A stretch of DNA of 64,000 bases from Pseudomonas phage EL, in the sequence record AJ697969.1, one strand, 5' to 3'. The notes below the pieces were generated by a model, which had not been told where the DNA came from, made no database searches, and saw only the letters and a list, made by a program, of their open reading frames with translations. Made by a program: the position numbers and the translations under genes. Each line of letters opens with the position of its first letter. Position 1 is the stretch's first letter. Positions 35,313 to 43,620 of this stretch are shown one piece after another.

Positions 35313-35906
35313 TTAATACGTGAGGGTGCCGTCGTAACGGAATTGTCCGTTAAAACGAGGAATGGCGTCGTAATGGCTTTCTACGACAGCGAGAGTACCG
35401 GTAACGGTGTTGGAATCAATGATAGCCTGAGTGAACTCCCCGTCGAGGGTAATTTCATCATCCGTCAAGTCGTAGTAGCATTTGGCTTTGATCAGGGCTT
35501 TAATGTGTTCAGGGTTACGACTCCCTTTGAACACCAATACCGCACCTTCAATGATATCTTCGTCTCGTTTGACTTGGTAAATACCTTCCACCCCCTGGGT
35601 TTGTAAAACGTCCCAATCAACCGGATCAGGGGTTTCCAGCATGGAGACCTTATTCTTCACATAATCCGCTGGGAGGTACCGTTGGTTCTTACCGGTCAGT
35701 TTACCTTCGGAATCGATGTTGACCACCCGAGCAAATTCACCACCTTCTACCTCAACTTTCCTGAGGTCAGAGAGGGTAGTATTGTCCAGGGTGAGTTGTT
35801 CTAATACACTAACAATGTTCGGTTCATCGGAATAACGTTCTTTATTAAAAGCGATGAACCGTTCCAGAAACAGTAGATCGTTTGGAAAGGCCATGGGCGT
35901 GTCCAC
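35313..35906 (-). CDS. Hypothetical protein, paralog B of 22997..23626 (first gene of tail-fibre operon)
   Basis: N-terminus FLERFIAFNKERYSDEP parallels FLDKFVEFNKDRYKDQA. Ordinary codon usage. Confidence 0.55.
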   Translation of the reverse strand: MDTPMAFPNDLLFLERFIAFNKERYSDEPNIVSVLEQLTLDNTTLSDLRKVEVEGGEFARVVNIDSEGKLTGKNQRYLPADYVKNKVSMLETPDPVDWDVLQTQGVEGIYQVKRDEDIIEGAVLVFKGSRNPEHIKALIKAKCYYDLTDDEITLDGEFTQAIIDSNTVTGTLAVVESHYDAIPRFNGQFRYDGTLTY

Positions 35907-36010
35907 AGAAGTAGATAGAGGGTTCGGTCATTAGACCATAAAATTGGTAAATAAAATAGTACCCAAACCCATATTCTTCACTTACCTGGTTATTTAACTT
36001 GAGGTTCTTT

Positions 36011-36032
36011 TCAAACCTACATAATCAGGGTG
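36011..36032 (+). promoter_or_regulatory. Conserved phage promoter-like motif, copy 5
   Basis: tcaaacCTACATAATCAGGGTG, 43 nt upstream of ATG 36075. Confidence 0.5.
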
Positions 36033-36074
36033 AAGCACAGACAGAGACCGTTTAACGGTCAAGGAGCCTTGTCA

Positions 36075-36251
36075 ATGAATACCCATCAGGCCAAACAGGG
36101 GTTAGCCCAGCGTGTTGAAACCCTGCGTCAAAAAGCTCGTCGTTATGCCCGTCAGGCGATGTGTTCCCTAGAACCGTCTTACCGGCAACATTACCGTCAA
36201 CTGAGCTACGAAGCCAGCCGTATGGCAGATCGCCTTCAACGTCAACTGTGA
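36075..36251 (+). CDS. Small basic hypothetical protein (58 aa)
   Basis: AAGGAG RBS. Arg/Gln-rich helical sequence. Confidence 0.35.
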   Translation: MNTHQAKQGLAQRVETLRQKARRYARQAMCSLEPSYRQHYRQLSYEASRMADRLQRQL

Positions 36252-36289
36252 TTGGTGTTTACCCCCCTTCCCCCACACACAGGTGTGAG

Positions 36290-36520
36290 ATGAGCAACGT
36301 TATCGATATGTTCAGCTGGCGGGACTCGAAGAATAAGCGTTCGAGTCAGTTCTCAGTGCTTCATCGTGAAATCGAAGCACTGTACGTCATTCAGAACCGC
36401 GCGCTTCAGGAGATCGCTTCAGCGGATACGGTCTTGGCGTATGAACAAGCTAAACTCTTCCTGATGGATGTCAGGATTGAAATCTACACCAAGACCATTG
36501 CGTTGAGTCAGTGTATCTAA
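36290..36520 (+). CDS. Small hypothetical protein (76 aa)
   Basis: AGGTGTGAG RBS-like sequence before ATG 36290. Confidence 0.4.
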   Translation: MSNVIDMFSWRDSKNKRSSQFSVLHREIEALYVIQNRALQEIASADTVLAYEQAKLFLMDVRIEIYTKTIALSQCI

Positions 36521-36542
36521 GGACATTTAACGTCCAGTGGTA

Positions 36543-36565
36543 ATCAAGTCTATATTACTTGGGTG
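36543..36565 (+). promoter_or_regulatory. Conserved phage promoter-like motif, copy 6
   Basis: atcaagTCTATATTACTTGGGTG, 42 nt upstream of ATG 36607. Confidence 0.5.
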
Positions 36566-36606
36566 ATTAGGTACACAACATTCATTCCTTTTTAGAGGTT
36601 TACACC

Positions 36607-37086
36607 ATGGCTAAACAGTCGAACTTCACCATCGCTAACTACAACGCCGTCCTGGAAGCTGTTAAAGCCAACAACGGTTACGTGATCGACACCCACGGTG
36701 GTAGCCGTGGACCTTATCGTGCTGCTGGTATCGCCGCACTGGTGAAGGACGAAAGGGTTACCCCGGTGCTGCTGTGCCATGGTTCCTACTTCTGCCTGAA
36801 CTCGCTGCACAAGGAAGCCGATGGTTCGGTGACCCTCTCCAGCTGGTCGGTCGGTGTTACCATCTTCACCCACCAACACGGTGGGCTGGAAGAAGCGATC
36901 CAAGCCTACAACAAGGAGCAATCCGAGTGGGCGTTGTCGGGTGGTCAACTGATGCATGTACGCATCTTCGACTACACCGACGAAACCGCACCTGTGTTCG
37001 GCGAGCCAGTTGATCTGGCAGGCGAAGTCGTGGGTGCGCTGGCAGCACAAGAGCCGATCGCCAAGGTCGACATCCCTGCTCAATAA
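36607..37086 (+). CDS. Hypothetical protein (GC3-rich, likely highly expressed)
   Basis: 159-aa ORF with strong GC3 bias, preceded by the promoter-like motif. Confidence 0.55.
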   Translation: MAKQSNFTIANYNAVLEAVKANNGYVIDTHGGSRGPYRAAGIAALVKDERVTPVLLCHGSYFCLNSLHKEADGSVTLSSWSVGVTIFTHQHGGLEEAIQAYNKEQSEWALSGGQLMHVRIFDYTDETAPVFGEPVDLAGEVVGALAAQEPIAKVDIPAQ

Positions 37087-39601: not shown

Positions 39602-42424
39602 TTAAAAGAGTGAGAGAACACTCCGGGAGGTATACAAGGAATGGGTTTCAGGTTCATCCCCCATATCAAACATTTCTTGGCCGGTGATATTACCCAACAA
39701 CTCATGGCCCTGTTCTTTACTCATAAGAATGTCCACTTGTTCCTTAGACCATTCCATGATGTTAATACTGCGGGTCATAATGTTGAGTTTATCCCCGGTG
39801 TCCATATCCAAGAGTTTAAAGTAACAGGGAGCATCCTGACCGGTACGCCAGGTACGGGCTTGGACCTGTTTCACTTCATACTCTCGGAAAGGGGCATTCA
39901 ACAGAATGGTCAGGTTCGCCATAATCAAGGGATACCCTTCCTTCAGGGAATCAAAGATCGCAATCAACGCACGGAGAGTGGGGTCTTTCTCAAAGCGTTT
40001 GATATTGGTGTCTCGTTCGTTGCTGTTTTCACCGTATACTGTCACATTCGGATACCCGACCTTCGTGAGGTATTCCTCGCAGAGTTTAAGGGCATCCACG
40101 TAGGAGGTAAAGATCAGAGTCTTCTTCTCCACGTTATCGATGAGCTCAGGGAGTCCTGCGTGCGCAATGGTGTCTTTAATAGCGTTAATACGGGCTCGTC
40201 CTAAAACGTTCCCTAAGGCCTCTCCACGCAGTTTTAGACCCAAGTACTTAACCGCGGACTTAATGTTCCTGAAATCCTTCAGGGTGGTCCCTTTAAGGCC
40301 CTTCTCGATGTCTTCTTCCACCAGCTTACAGAACTGACTGTCTTGGTTATCCGTAAAACTGTTGTACCCCCGGGTTCTGAACCGGTGAACAATCTGTTTG
40401 TACTTCACCAGATTCTCAACCGCTTTAGCATTCCCCTGGATAGACAATTCATACGACGTCATAACATCGTTGTAGAATTCCAGGAAGCTCGGCATATGCT
40501 TCGTATAGAACGCAATCCGTTCTCCAATGTAAATCTGCATTTGGAGGCGAATAGCATCCAAGGTGTATTGATCCGAATTCGGGATCTTCACCTTAACCAG
40601 TTCCATAGGAGGAGGATCGCCCAATCCCACCAGTTCAGGAATGGTGAACTTCATACGTCCAATACGTCTACTCAGCAAATCCATTAACGAGGGACGGTTA
40701 CGTCCATAGGACGCCATAAAGAACTCCCGAGCCTTCTTATCGAAGTAGGGATCGATCATACAGGTCGTTGGGAAGATTTCACTCCCCTGAGCCTTTAGCG
40801 GCGTCCCTGACATCGGAAGGTGATGCCCGAACAGTTCCATGTCGCACCATTCGATCAACTTCCGTGTACGGGCTGCTTTAGGGTCATTGAAGTTCTGGGA
40901 TTCATCCAGAATCATCTTCAAAGCGCCTTTATGCTTCTTACTCAGCGCAATGAGGAAGTTCTCCAAGTATTTCCCCATACCACTGGTCATGTAATCGTAA
41001 TGGACGATGTAGAAGTCATACCCTTCTTCTAAGACCTTACCGCTGATACTGGTCCAGATACGGGGTGGAACCTTAAAGTGCTGGAGGGGTTGTTCTACCC
41101 AGACTTTATCCACAATGTTCATAGGGCAAAAGACAACCGTCGGAGCCGTATTGATCAATTGAGACCACGCCAAGGACGTAAAGGTATTGTGGGTCACGAT
41201 GTAGTCATCCACCACATACAGCTTCTCGTCATTATCCAAGGCAATGCAGCAAGTCTCTTGATTCTCCACTTTCTCCCAGTACGCCAGCTTCAGTTGCAGG
41301 TCTTCATACTGGGAGAAGTTATACATTCCTTGAATACGGGGATTGTCTCCAATTAACCCAGTCATCATCTTGCCGACGTCTCGGTGCTTAAAGTCAACCT
41401 TATACAAACCGTTAACCAACACTGGCTCCGTAGCTGTTCCTCCAATGGACCACATCAACCGACGGAAGTTCTCCATCCCAATCCGGTTCTCGTGATACGC
41501 GGATAAGACGGATTCACTGATTAAACACCCCACGTGTTCAATCACCGATGTGACTATATTAAAGCGATCCCGATACGGGAGCTCCAATACGTTGTCCCCT
41601 ATTACAACGTCGGTATTGACCAGCTCCCTTGCAGCGACTTCAGAAGACGTATCGCAATGGGGGTTGCATCCATTGATCTCACCCACTAAGGGGAAGTACA
41701 CATCCTCTTTACGGGCTTTATGGAGTACTTCCAACGTGGTTAAGATTTCATCGACCCCATTCACCGTGGTTTTCCACAAATGATACGGATGAGAGTCAGC
41801 CGTTCTACCGTCTTCGAAATAGAAGCGATAAACTTCCGTGATCCCCTGGGGGTAAATACTCTCCACACACGCGGTATCACCCCCGGGGGTCACTACGATA
41901 TCCTTGACCTTTAGGTCACCCAAGGCTTTCCACCCATTTGGGACTTTAACCCGGGTTGAGAGAGGCATGGCTTTTCCTGAACCCGGTTTAGCATCCAACA
42001 ACATCCCTTTCAAGTGATAACTGTTCACAATGATAGGGTATTGCTGAAGAAAGTCCAACTGCTGAGGAAAGGGAACTGTGTTGAACTGATTCAGTTTCTT
42101 AAGATCAAAAGGTTTACCTCCCGGATTAACCGTATCTTTAATCCAGGTCTCGGTTTCAATGAGTTCCTTCAATTCACTCAACGCTCGTCTGCGGGTACGG
42201 AGGTTCCGTATTTTGAGGAGTTCCCCCACAATGTGGTGCAATTCTACCAGGAAGAAGTTATGCACCTTAATGGTGTCCCAGGATTCGCGTCGAATCTGAT
42301 GTTTCGTTAAGAGAGAAGTGCTGTAGAACTTCTCAATGTCTTTGGCTAAATCGTAATAGGACACACCCGTAATGTGTACGTAGTCTCCCGTTTGTTTGAT
42401 CTTAACTGAAAACAGTCCTAACAT
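39602..42424 (-). CDS. SF2 helicase (SNF2/DExQ-like) interrupted by an intein in motif I
   Basis: Q-motif PFPQQLDFL. Walker A LDAKPGSGK|[intein]|TFTSLAW. Motif II MILDESQNF. Motifs IV-VI (LIFTSYVD, QARTWRTGQ). 940 aa including the intein. Confidence 0.8.
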   Translation of the reverse strand: MLGLFSVKIKQTGDYVHITGVSYYDLAKDIEKFYSTSLLTKHQIRRESWDTIKVHNFFLVELHHIVGELLKIRNLRTRRRALSELKELIETETWIKDTVNPGGKPFDLKKLNQFNTVPFPQQLDFLQQYPIIVNSYHLKGMLLDAKPGSGKAMPLSTRVKVPNGWKALGDLKVKDIVVTPGGDTACVESIYPQGITEVYRFYFEDGRTADSHPYHLWKTTVNGVDEILTTLEVLHKARKEDVYFPLVGEINGCNPHCDTSSEVAARELVNTDVVIGDNVLELPYRDRFNIVTSVIEHVGCLISESVLSAYHENRIGMENFRRLMWSIGGTATEPVLVNGLYKVDFKHRDVGKMMTGLIGDNPRIQGMYNFSQYEDLQLKLAYWEKVENQETCCIALDNDEKLYVVDDYIVTHNTFTSLAWSQLINTAPTVVFCPMNIVDKVWVEQPLQHFKVPPRIWTSISGKVLEEGYDFYIVHYDYMTSGMGKYLENFLIALSKKHKGALKMILDESQNFNDPKAARTRKLIEWCDMELFGHHLPMSGTPLKAQGSEIFPTTCMIDPYFDKKAREFFMASYGRNRPSLMDLLSRRIGRMKFTIPELVGLGDPPPMELVKVKIPNSDQYTLDAIRLQMQIYIGERIAFYTKHMPSFLEFYNDVMTSYELSIQGNAKAVENLVKYKQIVHRFRTRGYNSFTDNQDSQFCKLVEEDIEKGLKGTTLKDFRNIKSAVKYLGLKLRGEALGNVLGRARINAIKDTIAHAGLPELIDNVEKKTLIFTSYVDALKLCEEYLTKVGYPNVTVYGENSNERDTNIKRFEKDPTLRALIAIFDSLKEGYPLIMANLTILLNAPFREYEVKQVQARTWRTGQDAPCYFKLLDMDTGDKLNIMTRSINIMEWSKEQVDILMSKEQGHELLGNITGQEMFDMGDEPETHSLYTSRSVLSLF
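41186..41971 (-). other. Intein (about 262 aa), class-3-like, inserted in helicase P-loop between GSGK and T
   Basis: N-terminal block A-like LSTRVKVPNGWKALGDL. Block B GRTADSHPYHLW. Block F ETCCIALD. Block G YVVDDYIVTHN followed by Thr (+1) that completes GSGKT. Starts with Ala, so there is no Cys/Ser1 nucleophile. Confidence 0.65.
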
Positions 42425-43620
42425 TGAAGTCGTCCTTAAAGAAGGGGTTTAAAATGCGTCAAGTAGAAGTAGGATCCGCGGTCTATAACAACCTGGCTCG
42501 TCTATACGACCACCTGTGGGGTGGAGAATTGGTTGAGGTAGGCCAACGGGTAGAAGGGGAAACGGAATATCGAGATGTGCTGACCCTCGGAGATGTCGAG
42601 ATCCATTACTTCTTTACCCTCAATAAAGAAGGTAAAGAAGAAGCCTACGTGCGGTATACCCGTGACAACGGTACCCTCACGTTCCGACTGAACGAGAAGT
42701 GGACCCAATACCTCTTCAATGACGAAATCTTCACCATTCCAGAAGAGATCGTAGAGGGTATGGGGAGGGTCTCTATAGAGTTCCCCAGTAGTTGGTTACA
42801 GGTCGCGGCTAAACACCCCGCTGATGATGTGCTTCAAGATGACCTGAAAACCACGGATAAACTGGTGATTAAGCTCTCCAATAAACTCCGTCATGCCGTG
42901 GATGTTATCACCAAGAAAAGCAACCATTTGGTTGAATGGGTGGGTAAACGTGACCACGACCTCTACCTCACGTTCAAAACCAAGAAAGACGACCTTTCTT
43001 ACTTTACGGTTCGGTTTGATAAAGTCTACCCCGAAGTCCCTAAAGAAGGGATTACCCTCGGGGAAGGGGAAACGTTGGAGATTGATAACCCCGATAACCG
43101 TCAGGAAGTTAAGGACCTTATTAAGACTATCGGTGAACTGGAACACCAAGTGAACCGACAGATTCAATATTACCGCAAGCATGCAGACCTGACTGACGCG
43201 GGTAAAGCACTCTTCGAGCAGGAAGTCCGTACCCTTCTATTTGCCGCCAGTCACTTCAGCAAACGCATTTATCCTTTCAACAGTGTGCATGGTAAGGAAT
43301 GGTTGGATAAGGCGGCTAACGAGATCCTGGAGCGCCTGTACGCCTATAAAGCCACCACAGACGTTCCCTTCGGGTTGGATGTGAACAGTTGGTTCGTGTG
43401 GAGTTATCCACTGGATGGAAGTGAGCCGGTTAAGGTCACGGATGAATCGGTTGACTTTATTGAGTGCGTACTTAATCGGTACACGGAGAGTTTTGTTGAT
43501 ATCCTGACGGGTTTCCTGATGGATTTGAACCACACGGAAGTCATCCGTCCGTATCACTACGTGGTGCCTGCTGACCTCAGTGACGGATACTCGATCGGCT
43601 CGATTCGTCGGGTAAAATAA
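42424..43620 (+). CDS. Hypothetical protein
   Basis: 398-aa ORF diverging from the helicase gene, followed by a hairpin. Confidence 0.5.
   Translation: MKSSLKKGFKMRQVEVGSAVYNNLARLYDHLWGGELVEVGQRVEGETEYRDVLTLGDVEIHYFFTLNKEGKEEAYVRYTRDNGTLTFRLNEKWTQYLFNDEIFTIPEEIVEGMGRVSIEFPSSWLQVAAKHPADDVLQDDLKTTDKLVIKLSNKLRHAVDVITKKSNHLVEWVGKRDHDLYLTFKTKKDDLSYFTVRFDKVYPEVPKEGITLGEGETLEIDNPDNRQEVKDLIKTIGELEHQVNRQIQYYRKHADLTDAGKALFEQEVRTLLFAASHFSKRIYPFNSVHGKEWLDKAANEILERLYAYKATTDVPFGLDVNSWFVWSYPLDGSEPVKVTDESVDFIECVLNRYTESFVDILTGFLMDLNHTEVIRPYHYVVPADLSDGYSIGSIRRVK

What the first reader, a model, noticed from the sequence alone, without database searches (positions are those of the whole stretch)
41186..41971. 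Class-3-like intein splitting the Walker A (GSGK|T) of an SNF2-type helicase
The 940-aa minus-strand helicase reads LDAKPGSGK, then a roughly 262-aa insertion, then TFTSLAW. Removing the insert restores a canonical GSGKT P-loop. The insert has Hint block A (LSTRVKVPNGWKALGDL), block B with a Trp two residues after the His (SHPYHLW), a Cys pair in block F (ETCCIALD) and a C-terminal HN followed by Thr. Residue 1 is Ala rather than Cys or Ser. This Trp/Cys/Thr arrangement without an N-terminal nucleophile defines class 3 inteins, which have been described in a mycobacteriophage DnaB and in the Deinococcus Snf2 helicase P-loop. A phage SNF2-helicase allele at the same insertion site would be a notable homing event. 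The insert size leaves room for a degenerate endonuclease or linker domain.
Basis: partly seen in the sequence, partly recalled or inferred. Interest (0 to 1): 0.7.

Follow-up and report, generated by a model that had tools for sequence, protein, structure and literature searches.

The report
Class 3 intein in phage helicase
A self-splicing protein insert (a class 3 intein with a dead homing-endonuclease remnant) interrupts the ATP-binding loop of a helicase in an EL-like Pseudomonas jumbo phage; this is a known kind of element, but some related phages have lost the helicase and kept only the intein, which is unusual.

Summary
The 940-aa minus-strand ORF (39602..42424) reads ...GSGK, then a 262-aa insert (41186..41971), then TFTSLAW. 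Orthologs without the insert read GSGK-TF without a break.

The insert is an intein:
- A clade profile matches solved inteins (E 3e-12).
- It carries every class 3 sequence signature: Ala1, His64/Trp66 (B10/B12), Cys242 (F4), Thr260-His261-Asn262 (G5-G7) and Thr+1.

The middle 150 aa are a LAGLIDADG remnant. One motif is deleted and the catalytic acid is lost.

The window is an Elvirus (Pseudomonas phage EL group). The intein is present in every sampled member of that clade and absent from outgroups, so it looks old and vertically inherited. It is not a recent homing event. Thousands of relatives sit at the same GK|T P-loop site in DnaB, SNF2 and terminase genes. It is therefore a new member of a known kind.

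One unexpected lead came up. In at least four related lineages the helicase exteins were deleted but the intein ORF stayed intact, which hints at a function of its own.

The parts
39602..42424 (-). Precursor ORF: 940 aa plus stop. It encodes the helicase N-extein, the intein and the C-extein.
   Evidence: It is 97.5-98.7% identical in DNA to the 'DNA helicase' genes of seven Elvirus phages. It matches PHROG phrog_62, DNA helicase, at 2.5e-122.
41972..42424 (-). N-extein, aa 1-151. It ends in GSGK (41972..41983), the first four residues of the Walker A motif.
   Evidence: There are no amino-acid differences among six EL-like isolates.
41186..41971 (-). Intein, 262 aa (protein aa 152-413).
41747..41971 (-). 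N-terminal half of the HINT splicing domain (intein aa 1-75), holding blocks A and B. Ala1 is at 41969..41971.
   Evidence: It aligns to gp41-1_WCT (6riz) and Msm DnaBi1 (6bs8) residues 1-70. pN/pS among isolates is 0.03.
41774..41782 (-). His64-Leu65-Trp66, block B positions 10-12. Trp66 is the class 3 triplet Trp.
   Evidence: His64 and Trp66 are invariant in the clade.
41297..41746 (-). Nested domain (intein aa 76-225). It is a degenerate LAGLIDADG homing-endonuclease remnant in which only the second half-domain survives.
41525..41566 (-). Remnant of the second LAGLIDADG motif, RFNIVTSVIEHVGC. It aligns to ...LLQGLLDTDG of full-length relatives. The catalytic Asp position is Val here and Ser or Ala in the clade.
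41186..41296 (-). C-terminal half of the HINT domain (intein aa 226-262), holding blocks F and G.
41246..41248 (-). Cys242, block F position 4, the predicted class 3 nucleophile. The neighbouring Cys241 (41249..41251) is not conserved.
   Evidence: It aligns with Cys107 of gp41-1_WCT and with the F4 Cys of Msm DnaBi1. It is invariant in the clade, whereas Cys241 is not.
41186..41194 (-). Thr260-His261-Asn262, block G positions 5-7: the triplet Thr, the penultimate His and the terminal Asn.
   Evidence: Positions are defined in PMC2807308.
41183..41185 (-). Thr+1 (protein aa 414). It is the first C-extein residue, the final acyl acceptor, and the T of GSGKT.
39602..41185 (-). C-extein, 527 aa plus stop. 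It holds the rest of the SF2 helicase core, with DESQ (motif II) at 40895..40906 and Helicase_C at 39839..40147.
   Evidence: Pfam Helicase_C at 1.8e-8. The SNF2/Rad54-family helicase 1z63 matches at 7.5e-5, and Fun30 and Rad54 also match. pN/pS is 0.07.

Best explanation
The 262-aa insert is a class 3 intein sitting between Lys151 and Thr414 of the Walker A loop (GSGK|T). The host is the conserved SNF2/RapA-like SF2 helicase of an EL-like (Elvirus, Chimalliviridae) Pseudomonas jumbo phage. The gene is translated as a 940-aa precursor whose ATP-binding loop is broken.

The inferred mechanism is the one shown experimentally for other class 3 inteins:
1. Cys242 (block F position 4), positioned by His64, Trp66 and Thr260, attacks the Lys151-Ala152 peptide bond. 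The N-extein moves onto the Cys242 thiol as a thioester (the block F branched intermediate).
2. The N-extein is passed to the hydroxyl of Thr+1 (the block G branched intermediate).
3. Asn262 cyclises and releases the intein.
4. An O-to-N acyl shift gives a native Lys-Thr bond, producing a 678-aa helicase with an intact GSGKT.

The 150-aa domain nested in the intein descends from a two-motif LAGLIDADG homing endonuclease. It has lost its first motif and the catalytic acid of the second, so it is most likely nuclease-dead. The intein is therefore no longer mobile. It is present in every sampled member of the EL-like clade and is inherited vertically.

Shown here: the boundaries, the homology, the fold, the signature residues, the selection pattern and the distribution. 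Inferred: that it splices, and that it uses the class 3 route.
For: - Boundaries. The insert has exactly the stated limits, and removing it restores GSGKT. Intein-free orthologs (RisingSun, Miami, OBP and others) read GSGK-TF/TY without a break. Intein-bearing orthologs (FishSpeaker, CF8, PDCC-1, phiKT1019) carry inserts of 227-358 aa at the same point.
- Sequence homology. The insert matches gp41-1_WCT 6riz at 3.5e-6 and Msm DnaBi1 6bs8 at 1.5e-3. The clade profile matches 6riz at 3.2e-12, gp41-1 at 8.7e-9, Msm DnaBi1 at 1.1e-8 and MchDnaB1 at 4e-6.
- Class 3 signatures. Ala1, His64, Trp66, Cys242, Thr260, His261, Asn262 and Thr+1 meet the definition in PMC2807308. The seven intein residues are invariant in all 18 helicase-embedded relatives tabulated, and +1 is Thr in every junction listed.
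- Evidence that splicing must work. The exteins are under strong purifying selection (pN/pS 0 and 0.07), although the P-loop is split. In a sister subclade, dN/dS is 0.04-0.06 for the HINT halves and 0.13 for the middle domain.
- Distribution. All 7 isolates, 15 helicase-bearing IMG/VR contigs and 11 JGI metagenome loci (some of them the same contigs) of the EL-like clade have the intein. The nearest outgroup, at 54% identity, lacks it.
Against: - No curated Hint, intein or LAGLIDADG model (Pfam, NCBIfam) matches this insert, even at E 10.
- Block B position 7 is His rather than the usual Thr or Ser. The prototype class 3 intein does not need that position (PMC2807308).
- Grafting the Trp-Cys-Thr triplet onto a class 1 intein did not give a splicing-competent class 3 intein (PMC7664689). 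The signature residues alone therefore do not prove activity.
- Among the six closely related isolates, the C-terminal HINT stretch and the middle domain show relaxed pN/pS (0.54 and 0.39). This rests on only 18 variable positions, none of them in blocks A, B, F or G.
- No splicing experiment or proteomic junction peptide is available.
Confidence: 0.85

Rival explanations
1. The intein is not merely a fixed passenger. In the EL-like clade the excised intein (HINT plus a nuclease-dead LAGLIDADG-like domain) has a function of its own, for example DNA binding or regulation. Under this reading it is kept as a stand-alone gene when the helicase is lost. This extends the best explanation rather than excluding it.
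For: - Stand-alone intein ORFs with only 9-26 aa of N-extein and 0-17 aa of C-extein occur in seven sequence clusters: P0001/L009, P0002/L010, L013/L014, P0004, P0005, P0006 and P0037.
- Five of the seven (L010, L013/L014, L258, L260 and L262) have the same divergent upstream neighbour seen next to the helicase. Homology is confirmed for L010, L013/L014 and L258. For L260 and L262 it is inferred from gene order.
- L010 differs from L020 by two in-frame deletions that exactly bracket the intein.
- An NJ tree scatters the orphans among helicase-embedded inteins, implying at least four independent events.
- Five of the seven keep all catalytic residues. P0005 and P0006 have no +1 nucleophile, and P0037 has lost His, Cys, Thr and His, yet all three remain intact ORFs.
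- The L010 intein shows dN/dS 0.06 against its helicase-embedded sisters.
- Six conserved helicase peptide patterns find no helicase on the orphan-carrying viral contigs, including a 236-kb one.
- The middle domain has dN/dS 0.13 and a WhiA-like fold.
Against: - The absence of the helicase rests on pattern scans, not on full-genome translation searches.
- The timing of each deletion is unknown, so low dN/dS may largely predate the loss.
- Orphans sit on longer branches, consistent with partial relaxation.
- No orphan is found in any isolated phage.
- No function, partner or DNA target is known.
- An earlier orphan class 3 intein, Arth_1007, proved to be a dead pseudogene (PMC3196547).
Confidence: 0.3
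2. The insert is a decayed, non-splicing intein, and the 940-aa protein is a dead or P-loop-independent helicase.
For: The endonuclease is clearly degenerate. Curated HMMs do not recognise the insert. Decayed class 3 inteins exist, for example Arth_1007 (PMC3196547).
Against: All catalytic residues are invariant across relatives that are 40-48% identical. The exteins, including both halves of the Walker A motif, are under strong purifying selection. The HINT halves have dN/dS 0.04-0.06.
Confidence: 0.04
3. It splices, but not by the class 3 route. One option is direct attack of Thr+1 on the N-terminal junction, as in class 2 KlbA inteins.
For: Residue 1 is Ala, as in class 2 inteins. No biochemical data exist for this intein.
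Against: The complete Trp-Cys-Thr triplet is present and invariant. Class 2 inteins lack the triplet and are confined to KlbA (PMC2807308; PMC3196547). The closest solved natural relatives are class 3 DnaB inteins and the class 1 gp41-1 intein.
Confidence: 0.05
4. The segment is an ordinary lineage-specific insertion domain that stays in the mature helicase.
For: Some SF2 helicases carry large insertions, and the segment is present in every sampled clade member.
Against: It splits GSGK from T inside the phosphate-binding loop. It has a full HINT fold whose N and C termini come together. It ends in His-Asn followed by Thr. Homologous inserts of very different length sit at exactly the same peptide bond. 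The same family sits at GK|T in unrelated ATPases.
Confidence: 0.02

Closest known systems
Class 3 DnaB inteins: mycobacteriophage Bethlehem DnaB (the prototype), M. smegmatis DnaBi1 (PDB 6BS8) and M. chimaera DnaB1 (PDB 6RIX/6RIY)
   Different: The host protein is an SF2 helicase, not DnaB. Block B position 7 is His. The solved DnaB inteins are 125-146-residue chains with no nested domain, whereas this one keeps a half-LAGLIDADG remnant. Sequence identity is only about 23-30% in the N-terminal 70 residues.
Deinococcus radiodurans Snf2 intein (class 3; Brace et al. 2010, cited in PMC3196547 and PMC2807308)
   Same: A class 3 intein in a helicase annotated as Snf2. Bacterial SNF2-type genes with EMG-x-GK|AQPL...VTHN|T junctions are found here.
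   Different: The Dra Snf2 sequence and its exact insertion site could not be examined here, because the paper and InBase are not held. The phage helicase is only distantly SNF2-like, so the two are analogous P-loop sites, not alleles of one gene.
Intein-bearing orthologs of the same helicase in other chimalliviruses (Shewanella phage FishSpeaker, Aeromonas phage CF8, Photobacterium phage PDCC-1, Vibrio phage phiKT1019). PhiPA3 gp233 is a paralogous helicase.
   Same: Same peptide bond, same A...H-x-W...C...VTHN|T/S signature, same intein family.
   Different: FishSpeaker, CF8 and PhiPA3 keep a full two-motif LAGLIDADG domain that Pfam recognises. The EL-like clade has an 85-aa deletion and has lost the catalytic Asp. 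These GenBank records label the genes 'DNA helicase', 'DarB-like antirestriction' or 'terminase'; none of the labels listed mentions an intein.
gp41-1 intein (class 1, cyanophage-like; PDB 6QAZ) and its engineered WCT variant (6RIZ)
   Different: Natural gp41-1 starts with Cys and has Phe at B12 and Asp at F4. It is a naturally split mini-intein. The engineered WCT version does not splice productively (PMC7664689).
PI-SceI (VMA1 intein) and other LAGLIDADG-bearing inteins
   Different: PI-SceI is a class 1 intein with an active two-motif endonuclease and an extra DNA-recognition region. Identity is about 10%.
Arthrobacter FB24 Arth_1007 intein (an orphan class 3 intein with 66 aa of extein in total)
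   Same: This is the precedent for the stand-alone intein ORFs seen in relatives of this phage: an intein left with only stubs of extein (PMC3196547).
   Different: Arth_1007 lacks His B10 and Cys F4 and is an inactive pseudogene. Most orphans found here keep every catalytic residue, recur in several lineages, and can be traced to deletions of a known host gene.

Membership tests
Intein (HINT protein-splicing domain) | An in-frame insert is absent from orthologs, and removing it restores a conserved host motif. | tested here: met
   GSGK|TF is contiguous in RisingSun, Miami, OBP and 9 further metagenomic homologs. Removing the insert restores GSGKT.
Intein (HINT protein-splicing domain) | HINT fold and sequence homology to known inteins. 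| tested here: met
Intein (HINT protein-splicing domain) | A C-terminal Asn is followed by a Ser, Thr or Cys. | tested here: met
   The junction reads ...VTHN|T. Asn262 is invariant in helicase-embedded relatives.
Intein (HINT protein-splicing domain) | Recognition by curated models (Pfam Hint, Intein_splicing, Hom_end_hint; NCBIfam). | tested here: not met
   No hit even at E 10. Full-length relatives give only sub-threshold Hom_end_hint or Intein_splicing hits. This is a sensitivity limit of the models, not a defining property of inteins.
Intein (HINT protein-splicing domain) | Protein splicing is demonstrated. | not testable with these tools
   Activity is only inferred, from purifying selection on the split helicase.
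Class 3 inteins (Tori et al. 2010, PMC2807308) | A non-nucleophilic first residue. | tested here: met
   Ala1. It is invariant in the clade.
Class 3 inteins (Tori et al. 2010, PMC2807308) | Trp at block B position 12, two residues after His B10. | tested here: met
   His64-Leu65-Trp66 aligns with His63/Trp65 of gp41-1_WCT and with HQW of Msm DnaBi1. It is invariant.
Class 3 inteins (Tori et al. 2010, PMC2807308) | Cys at block F position 4. | tested here: met
   Cys242 aligns with Cys107 of gp41-1_WCT and with the F4 Cys of Msm DnaBi1. It is invariant, whereas Cys241 is not.
Class 3 inteins (Tori et al. 2010, PMC2807308) | Thr at block G position 5. | tested here: met
   Thr260 in VTHN.
Class 3 inteins (Tori et al. 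2010, PMC2807308) | Ser or Thr (rarely Cys) at +1. | tested here: met
   Thr414.
Class 3 inteins (Tori et al. 2010, PMC2807308) | Membership of the monophyletic class 3 clade. | tested here: inconclusive
   No formal tree with class 1 outgroups was built. Supporting points: 80 of 80 bacterial relatives have H-x-W, 75 of 80 start with Ala, and many sit at the DnaB GRPSMGK|T site used by known class 3 inteins. However, the single best solved match is the (engineered) class 1 gp41-1.
Class 3 inteins (Tori et al. 2010, PMC2807308) | Obligate F4 Cys and a thiol-labile block F branched intermediate. | not testable with these tools
   This needs C242A and N262A mutants and mass spectrometry.
LAGLIDADG homing endonuclease (intein-nested) | LAGLIDADG-type alpha-beta-beta-alpha-beta-beta-alpha fold. 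| tested here: met
LAGLIDADG homing endonuclease (intein-nested) | Two LAGLIDADG motifs (or a homodimer of one), each ending in a catalytic Asp or Glu before the Gly. | tested here: not met
   The first motif region is deleted. The second reads VIEHVG here and MIE-x-[S/A]-G in the clade, against LLDTDG in full-length relatives. There is no Pfam LAGLIDADG_3 hit.
SNF2/Swi2-type SF2 helicase (the host protein) | Walker A GxGKT, a DExx motif II and the Helicase_C lobe. | tested here: met
   GSGKT after splicing. DESQ at aa 507-510. Helicase_C at 1.8e-8.
SNF2/Swi2-type SF2 helicase (the host protein) | Specific SNF2-family N-lobe signature (Pfam SNF2-rel_dom). | tested here: inconclusive
   There is no SNF2 N-lobe Pfam hit. 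The C-lobe matches the SNF2/Rad54-family helicase 1z63 at 7.5e-5, and also Fun30 and Rad54. Orthologs are annotated as SNF2-domain or RapA-like. Iyer et al. describe a Swi2/Snf2 helicase linked to the phage RNA polymerase in this phage group (PMC7824862).

The most novel reading that the evidence does not exclude
In the EL-like jumbo-phage clade this class 3 intein has been taken over for a job of its own. On at least four independent occasions the SNF2/RapA-like helicase exteins were deleted, in one case by two in-frame deletions that exactly bracket the intein. The intein ORF, expressed from the helicase start codon, was kept intact each time. Some of these orphans can no longer splice (no +1 nucleophile, or the catalytic Cys and His are lost) yet remain open reading frames. 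The window's intein would then be the still-embedded form of a domesticated HINT plus nuclease-dead LAGLIDADG protein, comparable in principle to WhiA or yeast HO (the HO comparison is from my own knowledge). It would be released from the helicase by splicing.
Probability: 0.3. Interest if true: 0.7.

Novelty: new member of a known kind. Interest (0 to 1): 0.35.

Why it matters
- Annotation. The seven GenBank Elvirus genomes either call this gene a 940-aa 'DNA helicase' with no mention of an intein (six records) or are unannotated (one record). The mature enzyme is 678 aa. The intein also contaminates PHROG profiles, so intein-bearing helicases get labelled 'terminase' or 'DarB-like antirestriction'.
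- Biology. The phage's conserved SNF2/RapA-like helicase cannot bind ATP until a Cys-dependent splicing reaction has run. Class 3 DnaB inteins are known to respond to oxidative stress and zinc (PMC6195587 and PMC7360933, listed). Conditional activation of a jumbo-phage helicase is therefore a testable idea.
- Evolution. The clade shows the late stage of the homing cycle: the intein is fixed and its endonuclease has decayed. It also shows a recurrent outcome that appears not to have been described before, in which the host gene is lost and the intein survives. This gives a natural system for asking whether inteins can be domesticated.

Tried and rejected
- Pfam and NCBIfam scans of the insert and of the whole protein gave no Hint or LAGLIDADG hit. 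I did not take this as refutation, because profile and structure comparisons are decisive.
- The first AlphaFold job, with a 3-sequence alignment, was poor (pLDDT 54.6) and its Foldseek hits were all weaker than 1e-3. It was superseded by the 37-sequence job.
- The word-indexed protein search returned only two relatives. They turned out to be the first orphan inteins.
- I searched the window for further related inteins and found none. The extra copies in EL-like genomes lie outside the window.
- I looked for phage EL itself (NC_007623, AJ697969), but it is not in the phage collection.
- I looked for Tori & Perler 2011 and Brace et al. 2010; neither is held. The supplementary table of class 3 inteins is not held either. 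No held paper mentions an intein in phage EL or in Chimalliviridae helicases.
- From memory only, unverified: InBase listed 'PhiEL Helicase' and other PhiEL inteins, and the 2005 EL genome paper mentioned LAGLIDADG and intein sequences. If so, the EL ortholog is already catalogued.
- 'Recent homing event' is rejected. The intein is present in every sampled clade member and its endonuclease is degenerate.
- 'Ordinary insertion domain' is rejected.
- The metagenome scan for further orphans found none among the 11 close relatives in its top 80.
- The window ORF 35313..35906, labelled 'terminase' in OP599913, shows no evident HINT motifs on inspection, and the intein tblastn found no match there.


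Full report
**1. What is in the window**

The minus-strand ORF 39602..42424 encodes 940 aa. GSGK lies at aa 148-151. A 262-aa segment follows (aa 152-413, window 41186..41971), then TFTSLAW.

**2. Where the window comes from**

The gene is 97.5-98.7% identical in DNA to a 'DNA helicase' gene of seven Pseudomonas aeruginosa phages of about 210 kb (IR-QUMS-PaBa1, MIZ-Pa99, GXNNE2, GXNNA8, phiRU, HHBS8_1, HHBS47_1). These are classified in Elvirus, Chimalliviridae. None of the annotated records mentions an intein. Phage EL itself is not in the phage collection.

**3. Is the insert an intervening element?**

A tblastn with the spliced extein finds 203 phage records.
- Many orthologs align in one piece. 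Erwinia phage RisingSun (54% identity), Klebsiella phage Miami and Pseudomonas phage OBP read ...GSGK-TF/TY... with no gap.
- Others carry inserts of 227-358 aa at exactly the same peptide bond: Shewanella phage FishSpeaker, Aeromonas phage CF8, Photobacterium phage PDCC-1 and Vibrio phage phiKT1019.
- All of those inserts begin with Ala, contain H-[LV]-W, contain Q-C-I and end in VTHN followed by T or S.

This rules out an ordinary conserved helicase domain.

**4. Is it an intein?**

Curated models say nothing. Pfam and NCBIfam give no hit for the insert even at E 10. More sensitive comparisons are unambiguous.
- Alone, the insert matches gp41-1_WCT (6riz, 3.5e-6), gp41-1 (6qaz), the class 3 M. 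smegmatis DnaB intein (6bs8, 1.5e-3) and the M. chimaera DnaB1 intein.
- A 14-sequence profile of its clade raises these to 3.2e-12, 8.7e-9, 1.1e-8 and 4e-6.
- A first structure prediction from three sequences was poor. A second, from a 37-sequence alignment, gave pLDDT 96.1 and pTM 0.92.
- Foldseek puts PI-SceI first (6e-9) and gives TM 0.80-0.81 to the class 3 DnaB inteins and gp41-1_WCT. All 50 listed hits are HINT domains.

**5. Which mechanistic class?**

Tori et al. define class 3 by four features (PMC2807308):
- a non-nucleophilic first residue;
- a Trp-Cys-Thr triplet at block B position 12, block F position 4 and block G position 5;
- the penultimate His and terminal Asn at G6 and G7;
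- Ser or Thr at +1.

Here these are Ala1, Trp66 (two residues after His64), Cys242, Thr260, His261, Asn262 and Thr+1. Assignments rest on the residue-by-residue alignments to gp41-1_WCT and Msm DnaBi1.

The F4 Cys is the second of the 'CC' pair; Cys241 is Ala or Leu in relatives. The triplet Thr is Thr260, not Thr+1. All seven intein positions are invariant in the 18 helicase-embedded relatives tabulated, and +1 is Thr at every clade junction listed.

**6. The family at large**

- In IMG/VR, 40 loci carry relatives. Most sit right after a P-loop GK in helicases, terminases or PhoH-like genes. Most start with A, M, D, E or G, and every complete one ends in VTHN|T/S.
- In bacterial genomes more than 514 loci match. 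Of the 80 examined, 80 have H-x-W, 75 start with Ala, and +1 is T in 74 and S in 6. Many sit at the DnaB site GRPSMGK|T or at SNF2-type EMG-x-GK|T sites.
- An exhaustive profile search finds 11,405 cluster representatives at E 1e-3 or better.

**7. The nested domain**

Full-length relatives at the same site (FishSpeaker, CF8) and in a paralogous helicase (PhiPA3 gp233) hit Pfam LAGLIDADG_3 above threshold. The window's intein and its close relatives do not.

Profile-profile alignment of the EL-like clade against 19 full-length inteins gives probability 100 and E 1.9e-51. It shows that the clade lacks about 85 aa containing the first LAGLIDADG motif. The invariant DTDG of the second motif has become E-x-[S/V/A]-G, which reads VIEHVG in the window.

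**8. History and selection**

Every member of the EL-like clade examined has the intein: the 7 isolates, 15 helicase-bearing IMG/VR contigs and 11 JGI metagenome loci (some of them the same contigs). The nearest outgroup lacks it. This fits an old insertion that went to fixation, after which the endonuclease decayed. It does not fit a recent homing event.

| Comparison | Region | pN/pS or dN/dS |
|---|---|---|
| Six isolates | N-extein | 0 |
| Six isolates | C-extein | 0.07 |
| Six isolates | N-terminal HINT half | 0.03 |
| Six isolates | Middle domain | 0.39 |
| Six isolates | C-terminal HINT stretch | 0.54 |
| Sister subclade | HINT halves | 0.04-0.06 |
| Sister subclade | Middle domain | 0.13 |

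Among the isolates, the relaxed values rest on 18 variable residues, none in blocks A, B, F or G. The sister subclade is more divergent.

A helicase under this much constraint, with its P-loop split, implies that splicing works. That is an inference, not a demonstration.

**9. The host protein**

Pfam sees only Helicase_C. The spliced protein weakly matches the SNF2/Rad54-family helicase 1z63 (7.5e-5), Fun30 and Rad54 in the C-terminal lobe. Orthologs are annotated as virion-associated SNF2-domain or RapA-like helicases. Iyer et al. describe a Swi2/Snf2 helicase in phiKZ-like phages whose distribution tracks the phage RNA polymerase, and suggest a RapA-like role (PMC7824862). 'SNF2-type' is therefore reasonable but not firmly established.

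**10. An unexpected lead outside the window**

The closest relatives in the large protein databases are stand-alone ORFs of 270-309 aa. They consist of the intein plus a few extein residues: P0001, P0002, P0004, P0005, P0006 and P0037, together with the IMG/VR loci L013 and L014.

*Origin by deletion.*
- Five of the seven clusters sit at the helicase's position, next to the same divergent upstream gene. Homology is confirmed for L010, L013/L014 and L258. For L260 and L262 it is inferred from gene order.
- L010 aligns with the helicase locus of L020 on both sides and through the intein (about 82% DNA identity).
- It differs from L020 by two in-frame deletions. One removes N-extein codons 18-144. 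The other removes the C-extein from codon 2 to about three codons before the stop.

*Recurrence.* An NJ tree places the orphans in at least four separate positions among helicase-embedded inteins.

*State of the catalytic residues.*
- Five of the seven clusters keep all catalytic residues.
- P0004 ends in THS with no C-extein.
- P0005 and P0006 have Leu or Gly at +1 and so cannot splice.
- P0037 has lost His, Cys, Thr and His.
- All of them remain intact ORFs.

*Selection.* L010's intein shows dN/dS of about 0.06 against its embedded sisters. Its terminal branch has 26 synonymous-type against 14 amino-acid-changing unique codons, which is within the range of embedded inteins.

*Is the helicase really gone?* Six conserved helicase peptide patterns detect homologs down to 35% identity. 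They find no helicase on three orphan-bearing viral contigs. One of these is 236 kb. The other two are 99.4% identical over the locus and together span about 229 kb.

*Caveats.* Pattern scans are not full searches. The deletion dates are unknown. No isolated phage carries an orphan. The only published orphan class 3 intein, Arth_1007, is a decayed pseudogene (PMC3196547). I therefore treat domestication of the intein as a lead with a probability of about 0.3, not as a finding.

**11. Verdict**

The feature is a class 3 intein with a decayed LAGLIDADG remnant, at the standard GK|T P-loop site, in the SNF2/RapA-like helicase of an EL-like jumbo phage.

This is a new member of a well-known kind. 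From memory only, InBase already listed a 'PhiEL Helicase' intein, which I could not check here. On its own it is of modest interest. The recurrent survival of the intein after loss of its host gene in related phages is the part worth following up.

Noticed in passing
Related loci: L009 162-1025, L010 954-1883, L013/L014 5974-6807, L258 6001-6813, L259 592-1428, L260/L261 5001-5840, L262 3919-4743, L263 3001-3837: These are stand-alone ORFs made of this intein plus 9-26 aa of N-extein and 0-17 aa of C-extein. Five of the seven clusters sit at the position where relatives have the helicase. They arose at least four times. Some keep all catalytic residues, and others have lost the +1 nucleophile or the catalytic Cys and His, yet all stay open. 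No helicase was detected on the orphan-bearing viral contigs.
   Followed up: partly
Outside the window: for example PQ287644.1 (HHBS8_1) 35970-36689 and PQ287649.1 35976-36695. One search also reports '3 places in record' for five EL-like genomes.: EL-like genomes carry two or three further related inteins in other genes; the copy identified lies in a second 'DNA helicase'. None lies elsewhere in this window.
   Followed up: no
window 41186..41971 as query: The intein alone matches PHROG profiles named 'terminase large subunit' (phrog_19299), 'DnaC-like helicase loader' (phrog_50) and 'DNA primase' (phrog_510); orphan P0005 also matches the terminase profile phrog_15. These profiles evidently contain intein sequence. 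That explains wrong labels such as 'DarB-like antirestriction' or 'terminase' on intein-bearing helicases in RefSeq phage records.
   Followed up: partly
Stx2a-converting phage records, for example LC616032.1 17261-18277: Forty-nine Stx2a-converting phage records match the intein (about 29% identity over 75% of its length). No annotated feature is listed under the match in the four records shown.
   Followed up: no
window 42424..43620 (+) and 42424 (-): The mechanical ORF for the divergent upstream gene starts at a TTG on the same base as the helicase ATG. Its PHROG match (phrog_23926) begins at residue 15, so the real start is probably downstream. That would leave a very short divergent intergenic region. 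This gene is the conserved left-hand neighbour of both the helicase and the orphan inteins.
   Followed up: partly
window 35313..35906 (-): This 197-aa ORF is annotated 'terminase large subunit' in OP599913.1, although it sits next to tail-fibre genes and is far too short. The label is probably wrong. On inspection it shows no evident HINT motifs, and the intein tblastn found no match there.
   Followed up: no
PV472050.1 record header: Phage MIZ-Pa99 is filed under Straboviridae in its GenBank taxonomy, although its helicase gene is 98.4% identical to those of Elvirus (Chimalliviridae) phages.
   Followed up: no
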